The notes beneath the pieces were generated by a model. It had not been told where the DNA came from. It saw only the letters and a program-made list of their open reading frames with translations, and did not search any database. 64,000 bases of DNA from a virus. Made by a program: the position numbers and the translations under genes. Below, piece after piece: positions 59,081 to 64,000 of this stretch. Location: IMG/VR virus record IMGVR_UViG_3300048574_000423, positions 2,732-66,731 of that record. One strand, given 5' to 3'. Each line of letters starts with the position of its first letter. Position 1 is the stretch's first letter.

Positions 59081-59292
59081 TGACGATCGAGCAGCGTGAA
59101 CGGCAGATCCGCTATCTGCTGGGCGTGGCGATGGGGCGCAGCTTCCTGTTTCGCGCGCTGATCGACGAGAGCGACTACACGAGGCTGGAAACCGCCTTCG
59201 CGGAGAAGTTCGCACCGCTCGTTCGCTATTGTGAGCCTTGCCTTTCCGAGCGTCCTCTGATAACACTGACGAAAAGGAGGAAGCGCAAATGA
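59080..59292 (+). CDS. SHOCT-like small protein preceding the recombinases
   Basis: RYLLGVAMGRSF...LIDESDY...FAPLVRY; paralogue of 58405-58692. Confidence 0.55.
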   Translation: MTIEQRERQIRYLLGVAMGRSFLFRALIDESDYTRLETAFAEKFAPLVRYCEPCLSERPLITLTKRRKRK

Positions 59293-60599
59293 ATCAGACA
59301 ACCACACGGCTGGTCACTCAGGTTCGCCCTGCCGCGCAGGAGACGCCGCACATCCTGAACGTGGCGGCTTACGCTCGGGTCTCACTGGAAAAGGATACCA
59401 TGCTGCACTCGTTCTCGGCACAGGTGGATTACTACAGCCGCCTGATCGGAAAGCAGCCCGACTGGAATTTCGCGGGTGTGTACGCCGACAAGGCGCTTAC
59501 CGGCACCAAGGCTTCCCGCCCGGAGTTCCAGCGGCTGCTCGCGGATTGCCGCGCCGGGAAGATCGACATAGTGATCACCAAATCCATCAGCCGCTTCGCC
59601 CGCAACACGGTGACGCTGCTGGAGGCAGTGCGCGAACTGAAGGCGCTGGGCGTTGACGTATATTTTGAGGAACAGAACATCCACTCGCTCAGCGCGGATG
59701 GCGAACTGATGCTGACCATCCTGGCATCCTACGCACAGGAGGAGAGCCGCTCGGTCTCGGAAAACTGTAAGTGGCGCATTCGGCGCGACTTCGAAAAGGG
59801 CATTCCCACGCCGACGCGGCTCAACGGGTACCGGATGCGGGACGGTGAGCTGCAAGTGATTCCCGAGGAAGCGGAGACGGTAAAGACGATCTTCGGCCTG
59901 TATCTGGAGGGCTACGGAAAGAATGCCATCGCCCGGCGGCTGAATGGGATGGGGATACCCGCCCTGAACGGCGGCCTGTGGAACGACTCCGCGATCGGAA
60001 GCATCCTGCGCAACGAGAAGTACCAGGGCGATCTTCTCTTGCAGAAGCAGTTCACCGTGGATCATCTGGGCAAGAAGGTCCGCCCGAACCGTGGCGAATT
60101 GCCCCAGGTGTTCGTCATGGATGACCACGAGCCCATTGTATCCCGCGAGACGTTTGAGACCACACAGGAGATCATCCGGGAACGCGCGGAACAATTCACC
60201 CATGAGAAGGACCTGAACAAATCCTACCCCTTCTCACGCAAACTGGTCTGCGACGGCTGCGGCAGGTGCTACAAGCGGCGCATGAACAACGGTAAGCGCA
60301 CGTGGCAATGCTCCACCTATATGAGCCACGGCAAGGCATACTGCGCGGCCAAGCAGGTACATGAGGAAATCCTCGAACGCGAAGCTGCCGCCGCGCTGGG
60401 CCTTGTAGAATTTGATGCGGCTGTCTTCGCGGAGCAGGTCGAAAGCATCCGCGTCTGCTCCGGCAACCGGCTTGAGTTCATATTCCGAGACGGGCATACG
60501 CAGGAGCGGATATGGGAGGACCCGACCCGCCGCGACAGTTGGACGGACGAAATGCGAAGGCAGGCGGCGGAGAAAACCAGAAAGAGGCGCGAACGATGA
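59289..60599 (+). CDS. Large serine recombinase 1
   Basis: AAYARVS (catalytic Ser), TKSISRFARN, NEKYQGD, zinc ribbon CDGC. Confidence 0.92.
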   Translation: MNQTTTRLVTQVRPAAQETPHILNVAAYARVSLEKDTMLHSFSAQVDYYSRLIGKQPDWNFAGVYADKALTGTKASRPEFQRLLADCRAGKIDIVITKSISRFARNTVTLLEAVRELKALGVDVYFEEQNIHSLSADGELMLTILASYAQEESRSVSENCKWRIRRDFEKGIPTPTRLNGYRMRDGELQVIPEEAETVKTIFGLYLEGYGKNAIARRLNGMGIPALNGGLWNDSAIGSILRNEKYQGDLLLQKQFTVDHLGKKVRPNRGELPQVFVMDDHEPIVSRETFETTQEIIRERAEQFTHEKDLNKSYPFSRKLVCDGCGRCYKRRMNNGKRTWQCSTYMSHGKAYCAAKQVHEEILEREAAAALGLVEFDAAVFAEQVESIRVCSGNRLEFIFRDGHTQERIWEDPTRRDSWTDEMRRQAAEKTRKRRER

Positions 60600-62137
60600 G
60601 CAATGCAAAGAAGATCACGGTGATGCCCGCGACACTGAACCGCTTTACCGCCATGCCGATCCACGGCACCCGGAAGCGCCGGGTCGCCGCCTACGCGCGT
60701 GTTTCCACGGATCAGGAAGAACAGCTCAGCAGCTATGAAGCGCAGGTGGACTACTACACGCAGTATATCCACTCCAAGGATGAATGGGAATTCGTGAAGG
60801 TGTATACCGATGAGGGAATCAGCGCCACCAACACCAAGAAGCGCGACGGCTTCAATCAGATGGTACAGGACGCGCTGGACGGCAAGATCGACCTGATCAT
60901 CACAAAATCCATCTCACGCTTCGCCCGCAATACGGTGGACAGTCTGACCACGGTTCGCGCGCTTAAGGAGAAGGGCGTCGAGGTATTCTTCGAAAAGGAG
61001 AACATCTACACCCTGGATTCCAAGGGTGAGTTGCTCATCACCATCATGTCAAGCCTGGCCCAGGAGGAAAGCCGCTCGATCTCCGAGAACGTCACTTGGG
61101 GTATGCGCAAGCGCTTCGCCGATGGCAAGGTCAGTATGCCCTACAAGGTCTTCCTGGGATACCGGAAGGGCGCGAACGGCCAGCCGGAGATCGTCCCCGA
61201 GGAAGCTGAGATCGTGGTTCATATCTACGACCTGTTCCTGGAGGGCAAATCGCCCTCCTTCATCGCGCGGCAACTGACCGCCGAGGGCATCGTTACGCCC
61301 GGTGGTAAGGCCAGATGGACGCCCAACCGCATTGAGAACGTCCTGACCAACGAAAAGTACAAGGGCGATGCCCTCTTGCAAAAGAAGTTCACGGTGGACT
61401 TCCTGACCAAGAAAACCAAGGTCAACGAGGGGGAAGTGCCGCAGTACTATGTGGAGGGCAGCCACCCGGCCATCATCCCACCGGAGAAGTTCGACGCCGT
61501 GCAAGCGGAGATGCAGCGCCGGAAAGCGAACCCGCACCGGTTCTACACGCCGCATGGCTTCTCCGGGTACATCTTCTGCGAGGATTGCGGCGGTCTGTAC
61601 GGTAGCAAGACCTGGCATTCCACGGATTGCTATAAGAAGGTGGTGTGGCAGTGCAATGCGAAGTACAAGCATGAAAAGCTCTGCCAGACGCCGCTGGTCC
61701 ATACCGAGGAAATGCAGGCGGCCTTCGTGCAGGCGATCAACCGGGTGGTCGGCAGCAAGGCTGAGATCATCGACCTCTGCGAAAAAGCTCTAAACCGGCA
61801 GACGGAAGTAGACAACCTGTCAAAGCAGATCGGCAAGTTCCAAGCCGAGTTGGAAGTCGTATCCGAACTCATGCAGCGGCCTGCGCCGGATCAGGAGGAG
61901 TACATAGCGCGCTGCATGGAAATCCGCCAGCGGCTTGACGAGGCCACGGCCCAGAAAACCCAGATGACCGCCAAGCGCAGCAAGATCATGACGTATCTCC
62001 AGACGCTTCGAAAGGCTGACTTGATCACTGAATTTGACGAGATGCTGTGGTACGGTACGGTGGATCGGGTGTGGGTATCAGCAAAAGGCAGCATCCGGTT
62101 CGTGTTCAAGGATGGTCAGGAAGTTGAGATCAAGTAA
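60596..62137 (+). CDS. Large serine recombinase 2
   Basis: VAAYARVSTD, TKSISRFARN, NEKYKGD, CEDCG, coiled coil. Confidence 0.92.
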   Translation: MSNAKKITVMPATLNRFTAMPIHGTRKRRVAAYARVSTDQEEQLSSYEAQVDYYTQYIHSKDEWEFVKVYTDEGISATNTKKRDGFNQMVQDALDGKIDLIITKSISRFARNTVDSLTTVRALKEKGVEVFFEKENIYTLDSKGELLITIMSSLAQEESRSISENVTWGMRKRFADGKVSMPYKVFLGYRKGANGQPEIVPEEAEIVVHIYDLFLEGKSPSFIARQLTAEGIVTPGGKARWTPNRIENVLTNEKYKGDALLQKKFTVDFLTKKTKVNEGEVPQYYVEGSHPAIIPPEKFDAVQAEMQRRKANPHRFYTPHGFSGYIFCEDCGGLYGSKTWHSTDCYKKVVWQCNAKYKHEKLCQTPLVHTEEMQAAFVQAINRVVGSKAEIIDLCEKALNRQTEVDNLSKQIGKFQAELEVVSELMQRPAPDQEEYIARCMEIRQRLDEATAQKTQMTAKRSKIMTYLQTLRKADLITEFDEMLWYGTVDRVWVSAKGSIRFVFKDGQEVEIK

Positions 62138-62188: not shown

Positions 62189-63565
62189 TCATTTCGGAGA
62201 GTTGCTATCGCGCTTTGGTTTCCGGGCGTGTAGCCTTTTTTGTAGTTTCCCCCATGCGCGTTTTGTATCCCGATCTATCGATTCTCTTTCTCCAAAAATA
62301 CGCTTAGCTCTATCAACATAGCTCAGGAAATTGCCTTTTTTCATTTTGGCTGTGAACTTTCCGCTGTTTGATTTCTCATCTTTCCCATACCTGGAGTATA
62401 GACGATATATTCTGCTCATTGGTATTTTGTTGCCAAATTTCGTCCTCCCATGATTCTGAGATATAGTGTCTGCTTTTCGATACATGCGACCATAGTATTT
62501 AGAAATAGTTTTTGAACGAATGCGGATAGTAATCCCGTCAAAAGTGAACCCTAAATATGATATTGCATTGATGCGGTTTGCTGATGCGTTATCACACATC
62601 GCCTTGTTTGTAATGTTGCCTTCGCTATACTCATACACTTGCGTCTTTTGGGTCTCTAGTTTGAGTCCTGGGACTTTTTGAACTTCACTAAAAATAGTGG
62701 ATAACCGTTTGCCAAATTCATTTTCTTCGGAATATGGAAGAACAATAATAAAGTCATCACAATACCTTCGATATACGCCACCGAGATAACTTACATAATT
62801 ATTTAATGATTTATCTAAATCAATTAAGTAAACATTAGAAAATACCGCACTTATTGCCGATCCTTGCGGTATTCCATAGTCGTTGCTATTTGTAATAATA
62901 TGAGTGCGTTTGTATGACCGAAACTGATCGGGTGAGAAAACGCGCTCTAAACTATAAAACTCTTTGCGTGTCATCCCTTTGAATTCTTTGATAGAGTCCA
63001 AGTCCAAGTATGAATAGCGCGTAATACTCCGGAAAACCGAATACATGTCGTCAGGGAGTCTGTCTGCTCCAAGGAGCGAGCAAAGCATATTCTTAAGATA
63101 AGCGTGTGATATATTGTCAAAGTATCCTGTAAAATCTCCAATAATCACATGAGCATGAGCGATCCTTTTTATTGTATCGAAAGAATCCTTTGCAAAGTGT
63201 ATGTTGTTTCGGTGCATATTGTTTCGGTAAGCGATAGCACATTTATTTGTTCCGTCAGTTTTGACTCGGACGTTATATTTTTCATTAACAAGATAAGCAT
63301 AGTATTCGTATATATAACGATCAATGTGGCTTGAATACATAATATTACGCTCCTTGGGGGAATCGCGATTTTCTTGCTTCCCGGCAAGATATTTCTTCGG
63401 ATATTTATATGCAGTTTGTGTGTAGTGAATGAATGGATAAAAGGCATGTTTCGATATACTGTCAGGATTTTCGACAGTAGAATATACATTACGCCAATGA
63501 ATCCTGGCATCAAAATGAGGATACTTTTTGTACTTGTAAATCCTCTCGCGTAGCTTTTGATTCAT
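62189..63565 (-). CDS. drt2: Defence-associated reverse transcriptase, DRT type 2 (UG2)
   Basis: N-terminal YPHFD, ERNIMYSSHID, GDFTGYFDNI, GIPQGSAIS, YRRYCDD, YLGFTFDG. Standalone gene with a structured ~300-nt leader; RBS AGGAG. Confidence 0.85.
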   Translation of the reverse strand: MNQKLRERIYKYKKYPHFDARIHWRNVYSTVENPDSISKHAFYPFIHYTQTAYKYPKKYLAGKQENRDSPKERNIMYSSHIDRYIYEYYAYLVNEKYNVRVKTDGTNKCAIAYRNNMHRNNIHFAKDSFDTIKRIAHAHVIIGDFTGYFDNISHAYLKNMLCSLLGADRLPDDMYSVFRSITRYSYLDLDSIKEFKGMTRKEFYSLERVFSPDQFRSYKRTHIITNSNDYGIPQGSAISAVFSNVYLIDLDKSLNNYVSYLGGVYRRYCDDFIIVLPYSEENEFGKRLSTIFSEVQKVPGLKLETQKTQVYEYSEGNITNKAMCDNASANRINAISYLGFTFDGITIRIRSKTISKYYGRMYRKADTISQNHGRTKFGNKIPMSRIYRLYSRYGKDEKSNSGKFTAKMKKGNFLSYVDRAKRIFGERESIDRDTKRAWGKLQKRLHARKPKRDSNSPK

Positions 63566-63569
63566 CTTT

Positions 63570-63864
63570 GAAGCACTCCTTTGCCCAAAAATGAGAGACT
63601 CGCCGGTAAGTGCAGCCTACTTTGATCCGGCGAGTCCACGATTGAACAATCCGACCAAACCACTGAACATGAATAAGGCGGGATGGCTGCATCCGAAGTT
63701 GCCCTCGCGCACTTTCATACCTTGTGCTATACTGAAGGAGGGCTGCTCGATGATAATGCTGGCGACGCTATGCGCGCTCAACGCTTACCTCGATTTCGCC
63801 GGTCAAGTTCTGGTTAACTACTTGACAGACGCAATATACTACCCTTATGACAACTCATAAGGCA
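63570..63864 (-). ncRNA. DRT2-associated template ncRNA
   Basis: Starts just after a TGcTATAAT promoter. 5' hairpin 63843-63862, template 63726-63842, ACA at 63723-63725, 10-bp stem 63597-63636 and a 7-bp pseudoknot pairing. The 3' end is approximate. Confidence 0.8.
63726..63842 (+). other. neo: Predicted cDNA repeat unit of a Neo-like hidden gene (39 aa)
   Basis: 117 nt, stop-free in the frame AILKEGCSMIMLATLCALNAYLDFAGQVLVNYLTDAIYY. TATACT near the start, AAGGAGG-8nt-ATG, TTGACA near the end. Confidence 0.75.
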
Positions 63865-63869
63865 ACTTT

Positions 63870-63878
63870 ATTATAGCA
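63870..63878 (-). promoter_or_regulatory. Extended -10 promoter of the ncRNA-drt2 unit
   Basis: The minus strand reads TGcTATAAT, placing the start site near 63863-63864 at the base of the 5' hairpin. Confidence 0.7.
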
Positions 63879-63982
63879 TATGTTGGCATAATACAAAACC
63901 TACGGCCAAAGAAATTAACAAAAATTTACGTGATGCATTTAGAGAAAATGCGAGTTTTACTCTGGTATACCCGTCGCGGGAT

Positions 63983-64000
63983 GGCGTGTAATGATGCACC
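63983..64000 (+). repeat. Right copy of the 18-bp direct repeat (candidate att/terminal motif)
   Basis: GGCGTGTAATGATGCACC; may extend beyond the window. Confidence 0.6.

What the first reader, a model, noticed from the sequence alone, without database searches (positions are those of the whole stretch)
63570..63722. Pseudoknot in the 3' scaffold of the RT ncRNA
Seen: a 10-bp stem GACTCGCCGG(63597-606)/CCGGCGAGTC(63627-636). Its loop holds TGCAGCC(63611-17), exactly complementary to GGCTGCA(63685-91). A competing small hairpin GGATG/CATCC (63681-94) overlaps the distal strand. Established: the characterised DRT2 RNA wraps the RT using a pseudoknotted scaffold. Inference: this is the RT-binding scaffold, possibly with an alternative fold.
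Basis: partly seen in the sequence, partly recalled or inferred. Interest (0 to 1): 0.65.

Follow-up and report, generated by a model that had tools for sequence, protein, structure and literature searches.

The report
Known DRT2 RNA pseudoknot, phage copy
The flagged pairings are real and are this phage's version of the already described pseudoknot that lets the non-coding RNA of a DRT2 anti-phage reverse transcriptase grip its enzyme, so this is a well-supported but ordinary member of a known system.

Summary
All three pairings are at the stated coordinates. The RNA is read from the minus strand, upstream of a DRT2 reverse transcriptase (62189-63565, PADLOC Drt2 E 6e-138; PDB 9C0I E 2e-61).

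In this window alone the 7-nt loop complement is not significant: it appears in 16-19% of shuffles. Across about 55 distinct homologous leaders it covaries strongly. All 8 pseudoknot columns change on both sides, 0 of 500 shuffles reach the score, and register-shifted controls pair in 34-60% of cells against 84-96%. The 10-bp stem covaries too (92-94% paired), as does a 3-bp helix that closes the pseudoknot loop.

A covariance model built without the window finds only this site in the 64 kb (57.5 bits, E 1e-9).

[quoted passage not shown] The sequence itself gives no RT-12 match.

The competing GGAUG/CAUCC hairpin occurs only in this sequence and a relative whose scaffold is identical, so the alternative fold has no comparative support.

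The template also predicts a 117-nt, 39-codon stop-free neo repeat. The scan has reported DRT2 RNAs before on other DNA.

Verdict: confirmed, new member of a known kind, low interest.

The parts
62189..63565 (-). DRT2 (UG2) reverse transcriptase, 458 aa, YCDD active-site motif
   Evidence: PADLOC Drt2 E 6.2e-138; Pfam RVT_1; PDB 9C0I Klebsiella DRT2 RT E 1.8e-61
63870..63878 (-). Probable ncRNA promoter: extended -10, TGcTATAAT. The transcription start is inferred near 63864 and was not mapped.
   Evidence: Read; conserved TATAAT in relatives; the promoter scan did not call it because the -35 is weak
63843..63862 (-). 5' handle: perfect 8-bp hairpin CCUUAUGA/UCAUAAGG with a 4-nt loop
   Evidence: part of the Rfam RT-6 match at 63788-63864 (35.3 bits, E 5.9e-6, below gathering score 46.7). 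RT-6 is above threshold in homologues L040 and L066.
63720..63836 (-). Predicted template, one 117-nt repeat unit. Read on the + strand it gives -35 TTGACA (63822-27), extended -10 TGcTATACT (63726-33), SD AAGGAGG (63735-41), ATG (63750) and 39 stop-free codons. UAU microhomology at 63836-34 and 63719-17 sets a 17-nt promoter spacer across the junction.
   Evidence: (open + frame 63591..63860). The junction position is inferred.
63701..63743 (-). Clade-specific closing helix GCCCUC (63743-38) / GAGGGC (63706-01) around the -10/priming region
   Evidence: Read by eye on the sequences printed; partner changes seen in L029, L030, L003, L034, L035. Not counted formally.
63685..63691 (-). Pseudoknot 5' strand, UGCAGCC
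   Evidence: covariation
63681..63694 (-). Small competing hairpin GGAUG-CAGC-CAUCC (-5.1 kcal/mol); not conserved
63649..63684 (-). Hairpin A, AUCCCGCC...GGUCGGAU. It starts directly after the pseudoknot 5' strand and is longer here than in sister sequences.
   Evidence: -9.0 kcal/mol; the basal stem of the equivalent hairpin is paired in 78.8% of cells, with changes on both sides, in A4
63637..63648 (-). 12-nt linker UGUUCAAUCGUG, conserved in the clade as UGUU..AUCGUG
63597..63636 (-). Hairpin B (3' hairpin). 10-bp stem 63636-27 / 63606-597. 3-bp distal helix AAG 63622-20 / CUU 63610-08. Apical loop holds pseudoknot 3' strand GGCUGCA 63617-11.
   Evidence: stem 92.5% paired, 10 of 11 pairs with changes on both sides; mini-helix 93.5%
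63587..63596 (-). 3' tail UCUCAUUUUU, conserved in the clade. The mature 3' end probably lies here or just beyond; it was not mapped.
   Evidence: By analogy with the Klebsiella RNA, which ends 26 nt after its pseudoknot 3' strand.

Best explanation
The stretch is the 3' scaffold of the non-coding RNA of a phage-borne DRT2 defence system, transcribed from the minus strand (about 63864 to 63587) just upstream of the RT. After the template, the RNA runs through UGCAGCC (63691-85), hairpin A, a 12-nt linker and the 3'-terminal hairpin B. Hairpin B has a 10-bp stem and a 3-bp distal helix that closes a 9-nt loop. Seven loop bases (GGCUGCA) pair back to UGCAGCC, giving an H-type pseudoknot that is contiguous with hairpin A and with the distal helix.

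Shown here: the pairings exist, they covary, and the architecture is that of DRT2 RNAs.

Inferred from the Klebsiella cryo-EM work: this knot clamps the RNA round the RT thumb and holds the 3' end and the end of the template at the active site. The RT can then copy the 117-nt template round and round into concatemeric cDNA that assembles a promoter and a stop-free 39-codon neo gene.
For: - **RT identity:** PADLOC Drt2 E 6e-138; PDB 9C0I E 1.8e-61.
- **Pseudoknot covariation, A3 (55 distinct leaders):** 8 of 8 column pairs change on both sides. Examples are GC:30/AU:21, UA:31/CG:23 and CG:41/UA:9/UG:4. 83.9% of cells are paired, 0 of 500 shuffles reach the covariation score, and slid controls pair in 34-60%.
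- **A4, without the window and L001:** pseudoknot 95.5%, stem B 93.5%, distal helix 93.5% paired.
- **Alignment-free check:** 46 of 52 distinct sequences pair 7 of 7, in 22 different sequence combinations.
- **Independent model:** R1, built without the window, hits only 63743-63588(-) in 64 kb, at 57.5 bits, E 1e-9.
- **Strand:** G-U pairs are frequent in the stems (for example UG:10 and GU:10), which fits the RT strand only.
- **Constraint:** the scaffold is 129/129 identical to L001 while the RT gene is 86.2% identical.
- **Rfam RT-12 on loci whose RTs are 53-60% identical to the Klebsiella RT:** conserved GCGGC upstream and GCCGC in the apical loop of the 3' hairpin. These change together to GCGGU/ACCGC in E. 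coli, where the strands are 95 nt apart, the same as 155 to 250.
- **Working template:** the template predicts a functional neo repeat.
Against: - In this window alone, a 7-nt complement is expected by chance in about one shuffle in six.
- The window's 3' scaffold has no Rfam match at E up to 1.
- Only one hairpin lies between the pseudoknot strands, whereas the Klebsiella type has two (tower and buttress).
- The 5' strand lies 31 nt after the ACA, against about 8 nt between primer site and pseudoknot strand in Klebsiella.
- The Klebsiella RNA itself could not be fetched and aligned, so the equivalence rests on topology, on RT-12 intermediates and on published numbering.
- RT binding, the potassium site and cDNA synthesis were not tested.
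Confidence: 0.9

Rival explanations
1. Lineage-specific switch. In this phage the 5' pseudoknot strand is first locked in the GGAUG/CAUCC hairpin, which also blocks hairpin A. The pseudoknot forms only when the RT or a trigger resolves that hairpin. This would add to the best explanation rather than replace it.
For: The hairpin exists at -5.1 kcal/mol and overlaps both the pseudoknot strand and the 5' strand of hairpin A. The minimum-free-energy fold draws it.
Against: It is not conserved. Only 3 of 52 distinct homologues have any local hairpin of -3 kcal/mol or better there, and the hairpins are unrelated to each other. The only sequence sharing it has an identical scaffold. The competing set is far more stable: pseudoknot duplex -11.8 plus hairpin A -9.0 kcal/mol.
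Confidence: 0.08
2. Hairpin B is only a transcription terminator or attenuator between the RNA and the RT gene, and the loop complement is a coincidence.
For: It is a strong GC stem, followed after 5 nt by a run of five U. The complement alone is within chance.
Against: Loop bases of a terminator should not covary with a site 70 nt or more upstream, yet all 8 column pairs do. Most homologues have no U run after the hairpin. The terminator scan did not call it. In the Klebsiella system, RNA and RT share one promoter.
Confidence: 0.02
3. The element works on the plus strand, as DNA or as an antisense transcript, because perfect stems fold on either strand.
For: The stems are perfect in this window, so they are strand-neutral here.
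Against: In homologues many positions are G-U on the RT strand, which would be A-C mismatches on the other strand. The promoter, the RT-6 match and the model hit are all on the minus strand.
Confidence: 0.01

Closest known systems
Klebsiella pneumoniae DRT2 ncRNA (Wilkinson et al. 2024, PMC12039810, PDB 9C0I/9C0J; Tang et al. 2024, bioRxiv 10.1101/2024.05.08.593200; NAR 2025, PMC12596737)
   Same: - RT of the same family.
- RNA directly upstream on the same strand.
- Order of parts: 5' handle hairpin, template, then a 3' scaffold.
- The apical loop of the terminal hairpin pairs with a strand just downstream of the template.
- About 280 nt overall. The pseudoknot 3' strand is at RNA position about 248-254 here, against 250-254 there.
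- The template predicts a promoter across the junction and a stop-free repeat (117 nt here, 120 nt there).
   Different: - 7 pairs here, 5 there.
- One hairpin between the strands, instead of tower plus buttress.
- The 5' strand lies further from the template end, behind an extra clade-specific helix.
- No ACA-1: the predicted jump homology is UAU.
- The RTs are distant (phmmer E 2e-61).
- The host is a Bacillota phage rather than an enterobacterium.
Rfam RT-12 RNA (RF03016)
   Same: It covers the 3' scaffold of proteobacterial DRT2 RNAs. These have a conserved GCGGC upstream and GCCGC in the loop of a short distal helix on a long 3' hairpin. That is the same design as hairpin B with AAG/CUU and its loop here.
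   Different: The window gives no RT-12 match at E up to 1. RT-12 has two hairpins and an extra outer helix.
Rfam RT-6 RNA (RF03027)
   Same: It matches the 5' handle and the UUGUCAA (-35 complement) region of Bacillota DRT2 RNAs: 59-69 bits in L066 and L040, and window 63788-63864 at E 5.9e-6.
   Different: The window scores 35.3 bits, below the gathering score of 46.7. RT-6 does not cover the 3' scaffold that was flagged.
Telomerase RNA template-pseudoknot core
   Same: Both have a template followed by a pseudoknot that holds a repeat-adding RT. This analogy was drawn by Wilkinson et al..
   Different: Those authors regard it as convergent, with a different fold and different protein contacts. 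It is not a homologue.

Membership tests
DRT2 (UG2) RT-ncRNA defence system | RT of the DRT2/UG2 clade, with the ncRNA immediately upstream on the same strand | tested here: met
   PADLOC Drt2 E 6.2e-138; PDB 9C0I E 1.8e-61; leader 63566-63864 on the minus strand
DRT2 (UG2) RT-ncRNA defence system | 5' handle hairpin followed by the conserved UUGUCAA region | tested here: met
   8-bp hairpin 63862-63843 and UGUCAA 63827-22. Rfam RT-6 E 5.9e-6, but 35.3 bits is below gathering score 46.7.
DRT2 (UG2) RT-ncRNA defence system | Template whose head-to-tail copies give a promoter across the junction and a stop-free in-frame ORF (neo) | tested here: met
   In silico only. 117-nt unit, TTGACA-17 nt-TATACT, SD, ATG and 39 open codons. 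The same rule gives units that are multiples of 3 with an open frame in most homologues.
DRT2 (UG2) RT-ncRNA defence system | Pseudoknot between a strand downstream of the template and the loop of the 3' hairpin | tested here: met
   Literature definition.
DRT2 (UG2) RT-ncRNA defence system | Tower and buttress hairpins between the pseudoknot strands | tested here: inconclusive
   Only one hairpin (A, 63684-63649) plus a 12-nt linker is seen in the window and its clade. Which Klebsiella hairpin it corresponds to cannot be told from sequence.
DRT2 (UG2) RT-ncRNA defence system | RNA wraps the RT thumb; potassium-stabilised knot; RNA-primed rolling-circle cDNA; phage defence | not testable with these tools
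   Needs biochemistry or a structure. Known only for the Klebsiella system.
Rfam RT-12 (RF03016) | Score at or above the family's gathering threshold | tested here: not met
   No RT-12 match in 63400-64000 at E up to 1. Positive controls: L118 72.9, L126 86.7, L127 81.8 bits.
   Single hit 63743-63588(-), 57.5 bits, E 1.2e-9, full model length

The most novel reading that the evidence does not exclude
This phage clade may carry a reduced DRT2 scaffold. It has a single hairpin in place of tower plus buttress, a 7-bp knot shifted by one register, and an extra helix that pairs the anti-Shine-Dalgarno part of the template with the post-template strand. In this particular phage the knot's 5' strand is also pre-sequestered in a small hairpin. 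That hairpin could act as an assembly or activation gate, which would be a regulatory layer not described for DRT2.
Probability: 0.08. Interest if true: 0.45.

Novelty: new member of a known kind. Interest (0 to 1): 0.2.

Why it matters
It confirms that a temperate Bacillota phage carries a complete, apparently functional DRT2 system beside its integrases. It also shows that the pseudoknot seen by cryo-EM in one enterobacterial RNA is a covarying, family-wide feature, present even in leaders that Rfam's RT-12 model cannot detect. That helps in annotating DRT2 RNAs and choosing compact scaffolds, but it changes no concept. The mechanism, the pseudoknot and its conservation are already published (Wilkinson 2024; Tang 2024; NAR 2025; the 2026 Minerva preprint).

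Tried and rejected
- **Fetching the Klebsiella RNA failed.** The Klebsiella RT has no relative in viral contigs. The plasmid and phage collections hold no Klebsiella copy. I used Photobacterium and E. coli DRT2 loci as intermediates instead (RTs 53% and 60% identical to the Klebsiella RT).
- **Rfam on the window's 3' scaffold found nothing**.
- **Model R1 misaligns the 5' pseudoknot strand of the window.** It aligns GGGCAAC to the consensus, because a covariance model cannot hold a pseudoknot. Pseudoknot counts were therefore taken from the MAFFT alignments A3 and A4 and from an alignment-free script.
- **3' tail pairing with the post-template strand.** The longest helix averages 4.87 bp, against 4.60 in shuffles. 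It is not supported family-wide, although AAAGUG(G)/(U)CAUUUU is conserved within the window's clade.
- **Terminator reading of hairpin B.** The scan did not call it, and most homologues have no U run.
- **Other template junction models.** CAAG (100 nt), AGUAUA (107 nt), GUAU (119 nt) and GGUA (122 nt) were considered by hand. All were rejected because they give wrong promoter spacing or a frame shift. Only the 117-nt unit gives a 17-nt spacer and an open frame.

Full report
**1. What is there**

The 458-aa ORF at 62189-63565 on the minus strand is a DRT2 reverse transcriptase. It matches PADLOC Drt2 at E 6.2e-138, Pfam RVT_1, and the Klebsiella DRT2 RT of PDB 9C0I at E 1.8e-61. The flagged stretch lies just upstream of it, so the relevant RNA is the reverse complement of the window sequence.

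These are the 10-bp stem 63597-606/63627-636, the loop TGCAGCC 63611-17 complementary to GGCTGCA 63685-91, and the small hairpin 63681-85/63690-94. In RNA sense the order is as follows.

| Element | Coordinates |
|---|---|
| UGCAGCC (pseudoknot 5' strand) | 63691-85 |
| Hairpin A | 63684-49 |
| Linker | 63648-37 |
| Hairpin B | 63636-597 |
| GGCUGCA in the loop of hairpin B | 63617-11 |
| Tail UCUCAUUUUU | 63596-87 |

**2. Is it more than chance?**

Not in this window alone. A complement of 7 nt or more between the 20-nt loop and the 228 nt upstream appears in 16-19% of dinucleotide-preserving shuffles. The evidence has to come from relatives.

I collected DRT2 loci from several sources:
- genomes;
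- metagenomes;
- viral contigs;
- plasmids and phages.

I then extracted the leaders.

On a MAFFT alignment of 58 leaders, 55 of them distinct (A3), the results were:

| Measure | Result |
|---|---|
| Pseudoknot column pairs with changes on both sides | all 8 (e.g. GC:30/AU:21, UA:31/CG:23, CG:41/UA:9/UG:4) |
| Pseudoknot cells paired | 83.9% |
| Shuffles reaching the covariation score | 0 of 500 |
| Cells paired when the partner is slid by 1-3 columns | 34-60% |
| Stem B cells paired | 92.5% |
| Stem B pairs with changes on both sides | 10 of 11 |

On a second alignment that leaves out the window and its near-twin L001 (A4), the pseudoknot is 95.5% paired. Stem B is 93.5% paired, and a 3-bp distal helix inside the loop is 93.5% paired.

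An alignment-free script finds 7 of 7 pairs in 46 of 52 distinct sequences, in 22 different sequence combinations. Examples are GGAUAGC/GCUAUCC, GGGUAGU/ACUACCC, GGGCAGC/GCUGCCC, UGACAAC/GUUGUCA and GGGCGGC/GCCGCCC.

Many stem positions are G-U on this strand, which fixes the strand.

A covariance model built from A4, and so without the window, finds a single site in the 64 kb. That site is exactly 63743-63588(-), at 57.5 bits and E 1.2e-9.

The 129-nt scaffold is 100% identical between the window and L001, although their RT genes are only 86.2% identical.

**3. Anatomy**

Hairpin B is composite. It has the 10-bp stem, a small internal loop (AUCA/A), and a 3-bp helix AAG(63622-20)/CUU(63610-08). 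The apical loop is UA+GGCUGCA, and its seven last bases form the knot.

The knot's 5' strand abuts hairpin A with no spacer. Its 3' strand abuts the distal helix with no spacer. The three helices can therefore stack into a compact H-type pseudoknot. That stacking is an inference.

The window's knot is shifted by one column relative to most homologues. It lacks the outermost G-C pair and gains one pair at the other end.

**4. Link to the known structure**

Three published descriptions bear on this:
- The 2025 NAR structure gives the knot as five pairs, G155-C159 with G250-C254.

I could not fetch the Klebsiella RNA. Three DRT2 loci served as intermediates instead: one from Photobacterium and two from E. 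coli. The Photobacterium RT is 53% identical to the Klebsiella RT, and the RT of E. coli locus L127 is 60% identical. All three loci match Rfam RT-12 (73-87 bits).

RT-12 has a conserved unpaired GCGGC upstream, and GCCGC in the loop of a short distal helix on the long 3' hairpin. In E. coli these become GCGGU and ACCGC, a compensatory change. There the two strands are 95 nt apart, the same distance as 155 to 250.

The window's design is the same. Its pseudoknot 3' strand even falls at RNA position about 248-254 if transcription starts near 63864.

The differences are these:
- 7 pairs instead of 5;
- one intervening hairpin instead of two;
- a longer spacer from the template, which contains a clade-specific helix GCCCUC/GAGGGC;
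- no RT-12 match at E up to 1.

The 5' part matches Rfam RT-6 below threshold (35.3 bits against 46.7, E 5.9e-6). RT-6 is above threshold in the homologues L040 and L066.

**5. The alternative fold**

GGAUG/CAUCC folds at -5.1 kcal/mol. It competes with the knot duplex (-11.8) and with hairpin A (-9.0), whose 5' strand begins with the same AUCC.

Only the window, L103 and L004 show any local hairpin of -3 kcal/mol or better at this place, and those hairpins are unrelated to each other. L001 shares the window's hairpin, but its scaffold is identical, so it adds nothing. There is thus no comparative support for a switch, though it cannot be excluded for this one lineage.

**6. The rest of the RNA**

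Read on the plus strand, the template carries TTGACA (63822-27), TGcTATACT (63726-33), AAGGAGG (63735-41) and ATG (63750). Its frame is open from 63591 to 63857.

A jump between UAU at 63836-34 and UAU at 63719-17 gives a 117-nt unit (39 codons, no stop). It also places -35 and -10 exactly 17 nt apart.

The same rule is a microhomology that sets a 17-nt spacer. Applied to most homologues, it gives units of 111-171 nt that are all multiples of three with an open frame. The exact junction is inferred.

**7. Context**

The window is part of a 67.7-kb virus record. The DRT2 unit sits convergent to two tandem large serine recombinases near the record's end. Other phages also carry DRT2, for example Clostridioides phage HGP05.

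**8. Verdict**

This is the canonical DRT2 pseudoknot in a Bacillota-phage lineage: a new member of a known kind, with modest architectural differences. The scan has already reported DRT2 RNAs on other DNA.

Interest is low (0.2). RT binding, the ion site, cDNA synthesis and defence are inferred from the Klebsiella system and were not tested here.

Noticed in passing
window 59238-62137 (+): Two tandem, slightly overlapping large serine recombinases (453 and 541 aa; PHROG integrase E 7e-119 and 6e-150) lie convergent to the DRT2 gene near the end of the 67.7-kb virus record. The defence unit therefore sits beside the integration module.
   Followed up: partly
window 63588-63716 vs L001:1351-1479: The 3' scaffold is 129/129 identical between the window and L001, and the template is 98.4% identical. 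The adjacent RT gene is only 86.2% identical. This means either very strong constraint on the RNA or a recent exchange of the RNA module.
   Followed up: partly
window 63701-63743 (-): Helix GCCCUC/GAGGGC pairs the complement of the neo Shine-Dalgarno sequence with the strand just before the pseudoknot. Partner changes occur in the window's clade (ACCCUC/GAGGGU, GCCUCC/GGAGGC, GCUCCCU/AGGGAGC). Other Bacillota clades instead use a short hairpin around the -10 complement. Seen by eye and not counted formally.
   Followed up: partly
window 63587-63595 and 63709-63715 (-): The conserved tail CAUUUUU can pair with the conserved GAAAGUG just after the template. Across all clades, tail-to-post-template helices are no longer than in shuffles (4.87 against 4.60 bp). 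Still, several clades show 4-5 bp at a fixed place (UUGCG/UGCAA, GGCG/CGCU, UGGA/UCCA).
   Followed up: partly
L056 (metagenome PPYF01445312.1), about 230 nt upstream of the RT start: This locus keeps the pseudoknot strand and the 3' scaffold of its clade, but the sequence upstream of it is unrelated: there is no -10 complement and no recognisable template. It may be a DRT2 that lost neo, like the case noted earlier by the scan on other DNA.
   Followed up: no
L003:3187-3260 and L030:191-263: tRNA genes lie within 1-2 kb of two sister DRT2 loci, which suggests mobile-element insertion at tRNA sites.
   Followed up: no
L126/L127 (E. coli chromosomes) and L118 (Photobacterium plasmid pPHDD1): Rfam RT-12 is the 3' scaffold of proteobacterial DRT2 RNAs, and RT-6 is the 5' part of Bacillota ones. 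Neither Rfam entry's name or description, as printed by the search tool, mentions DRT2. Neither covers the 3' scaffold of the Bacillota clades.
   Followed up: partly
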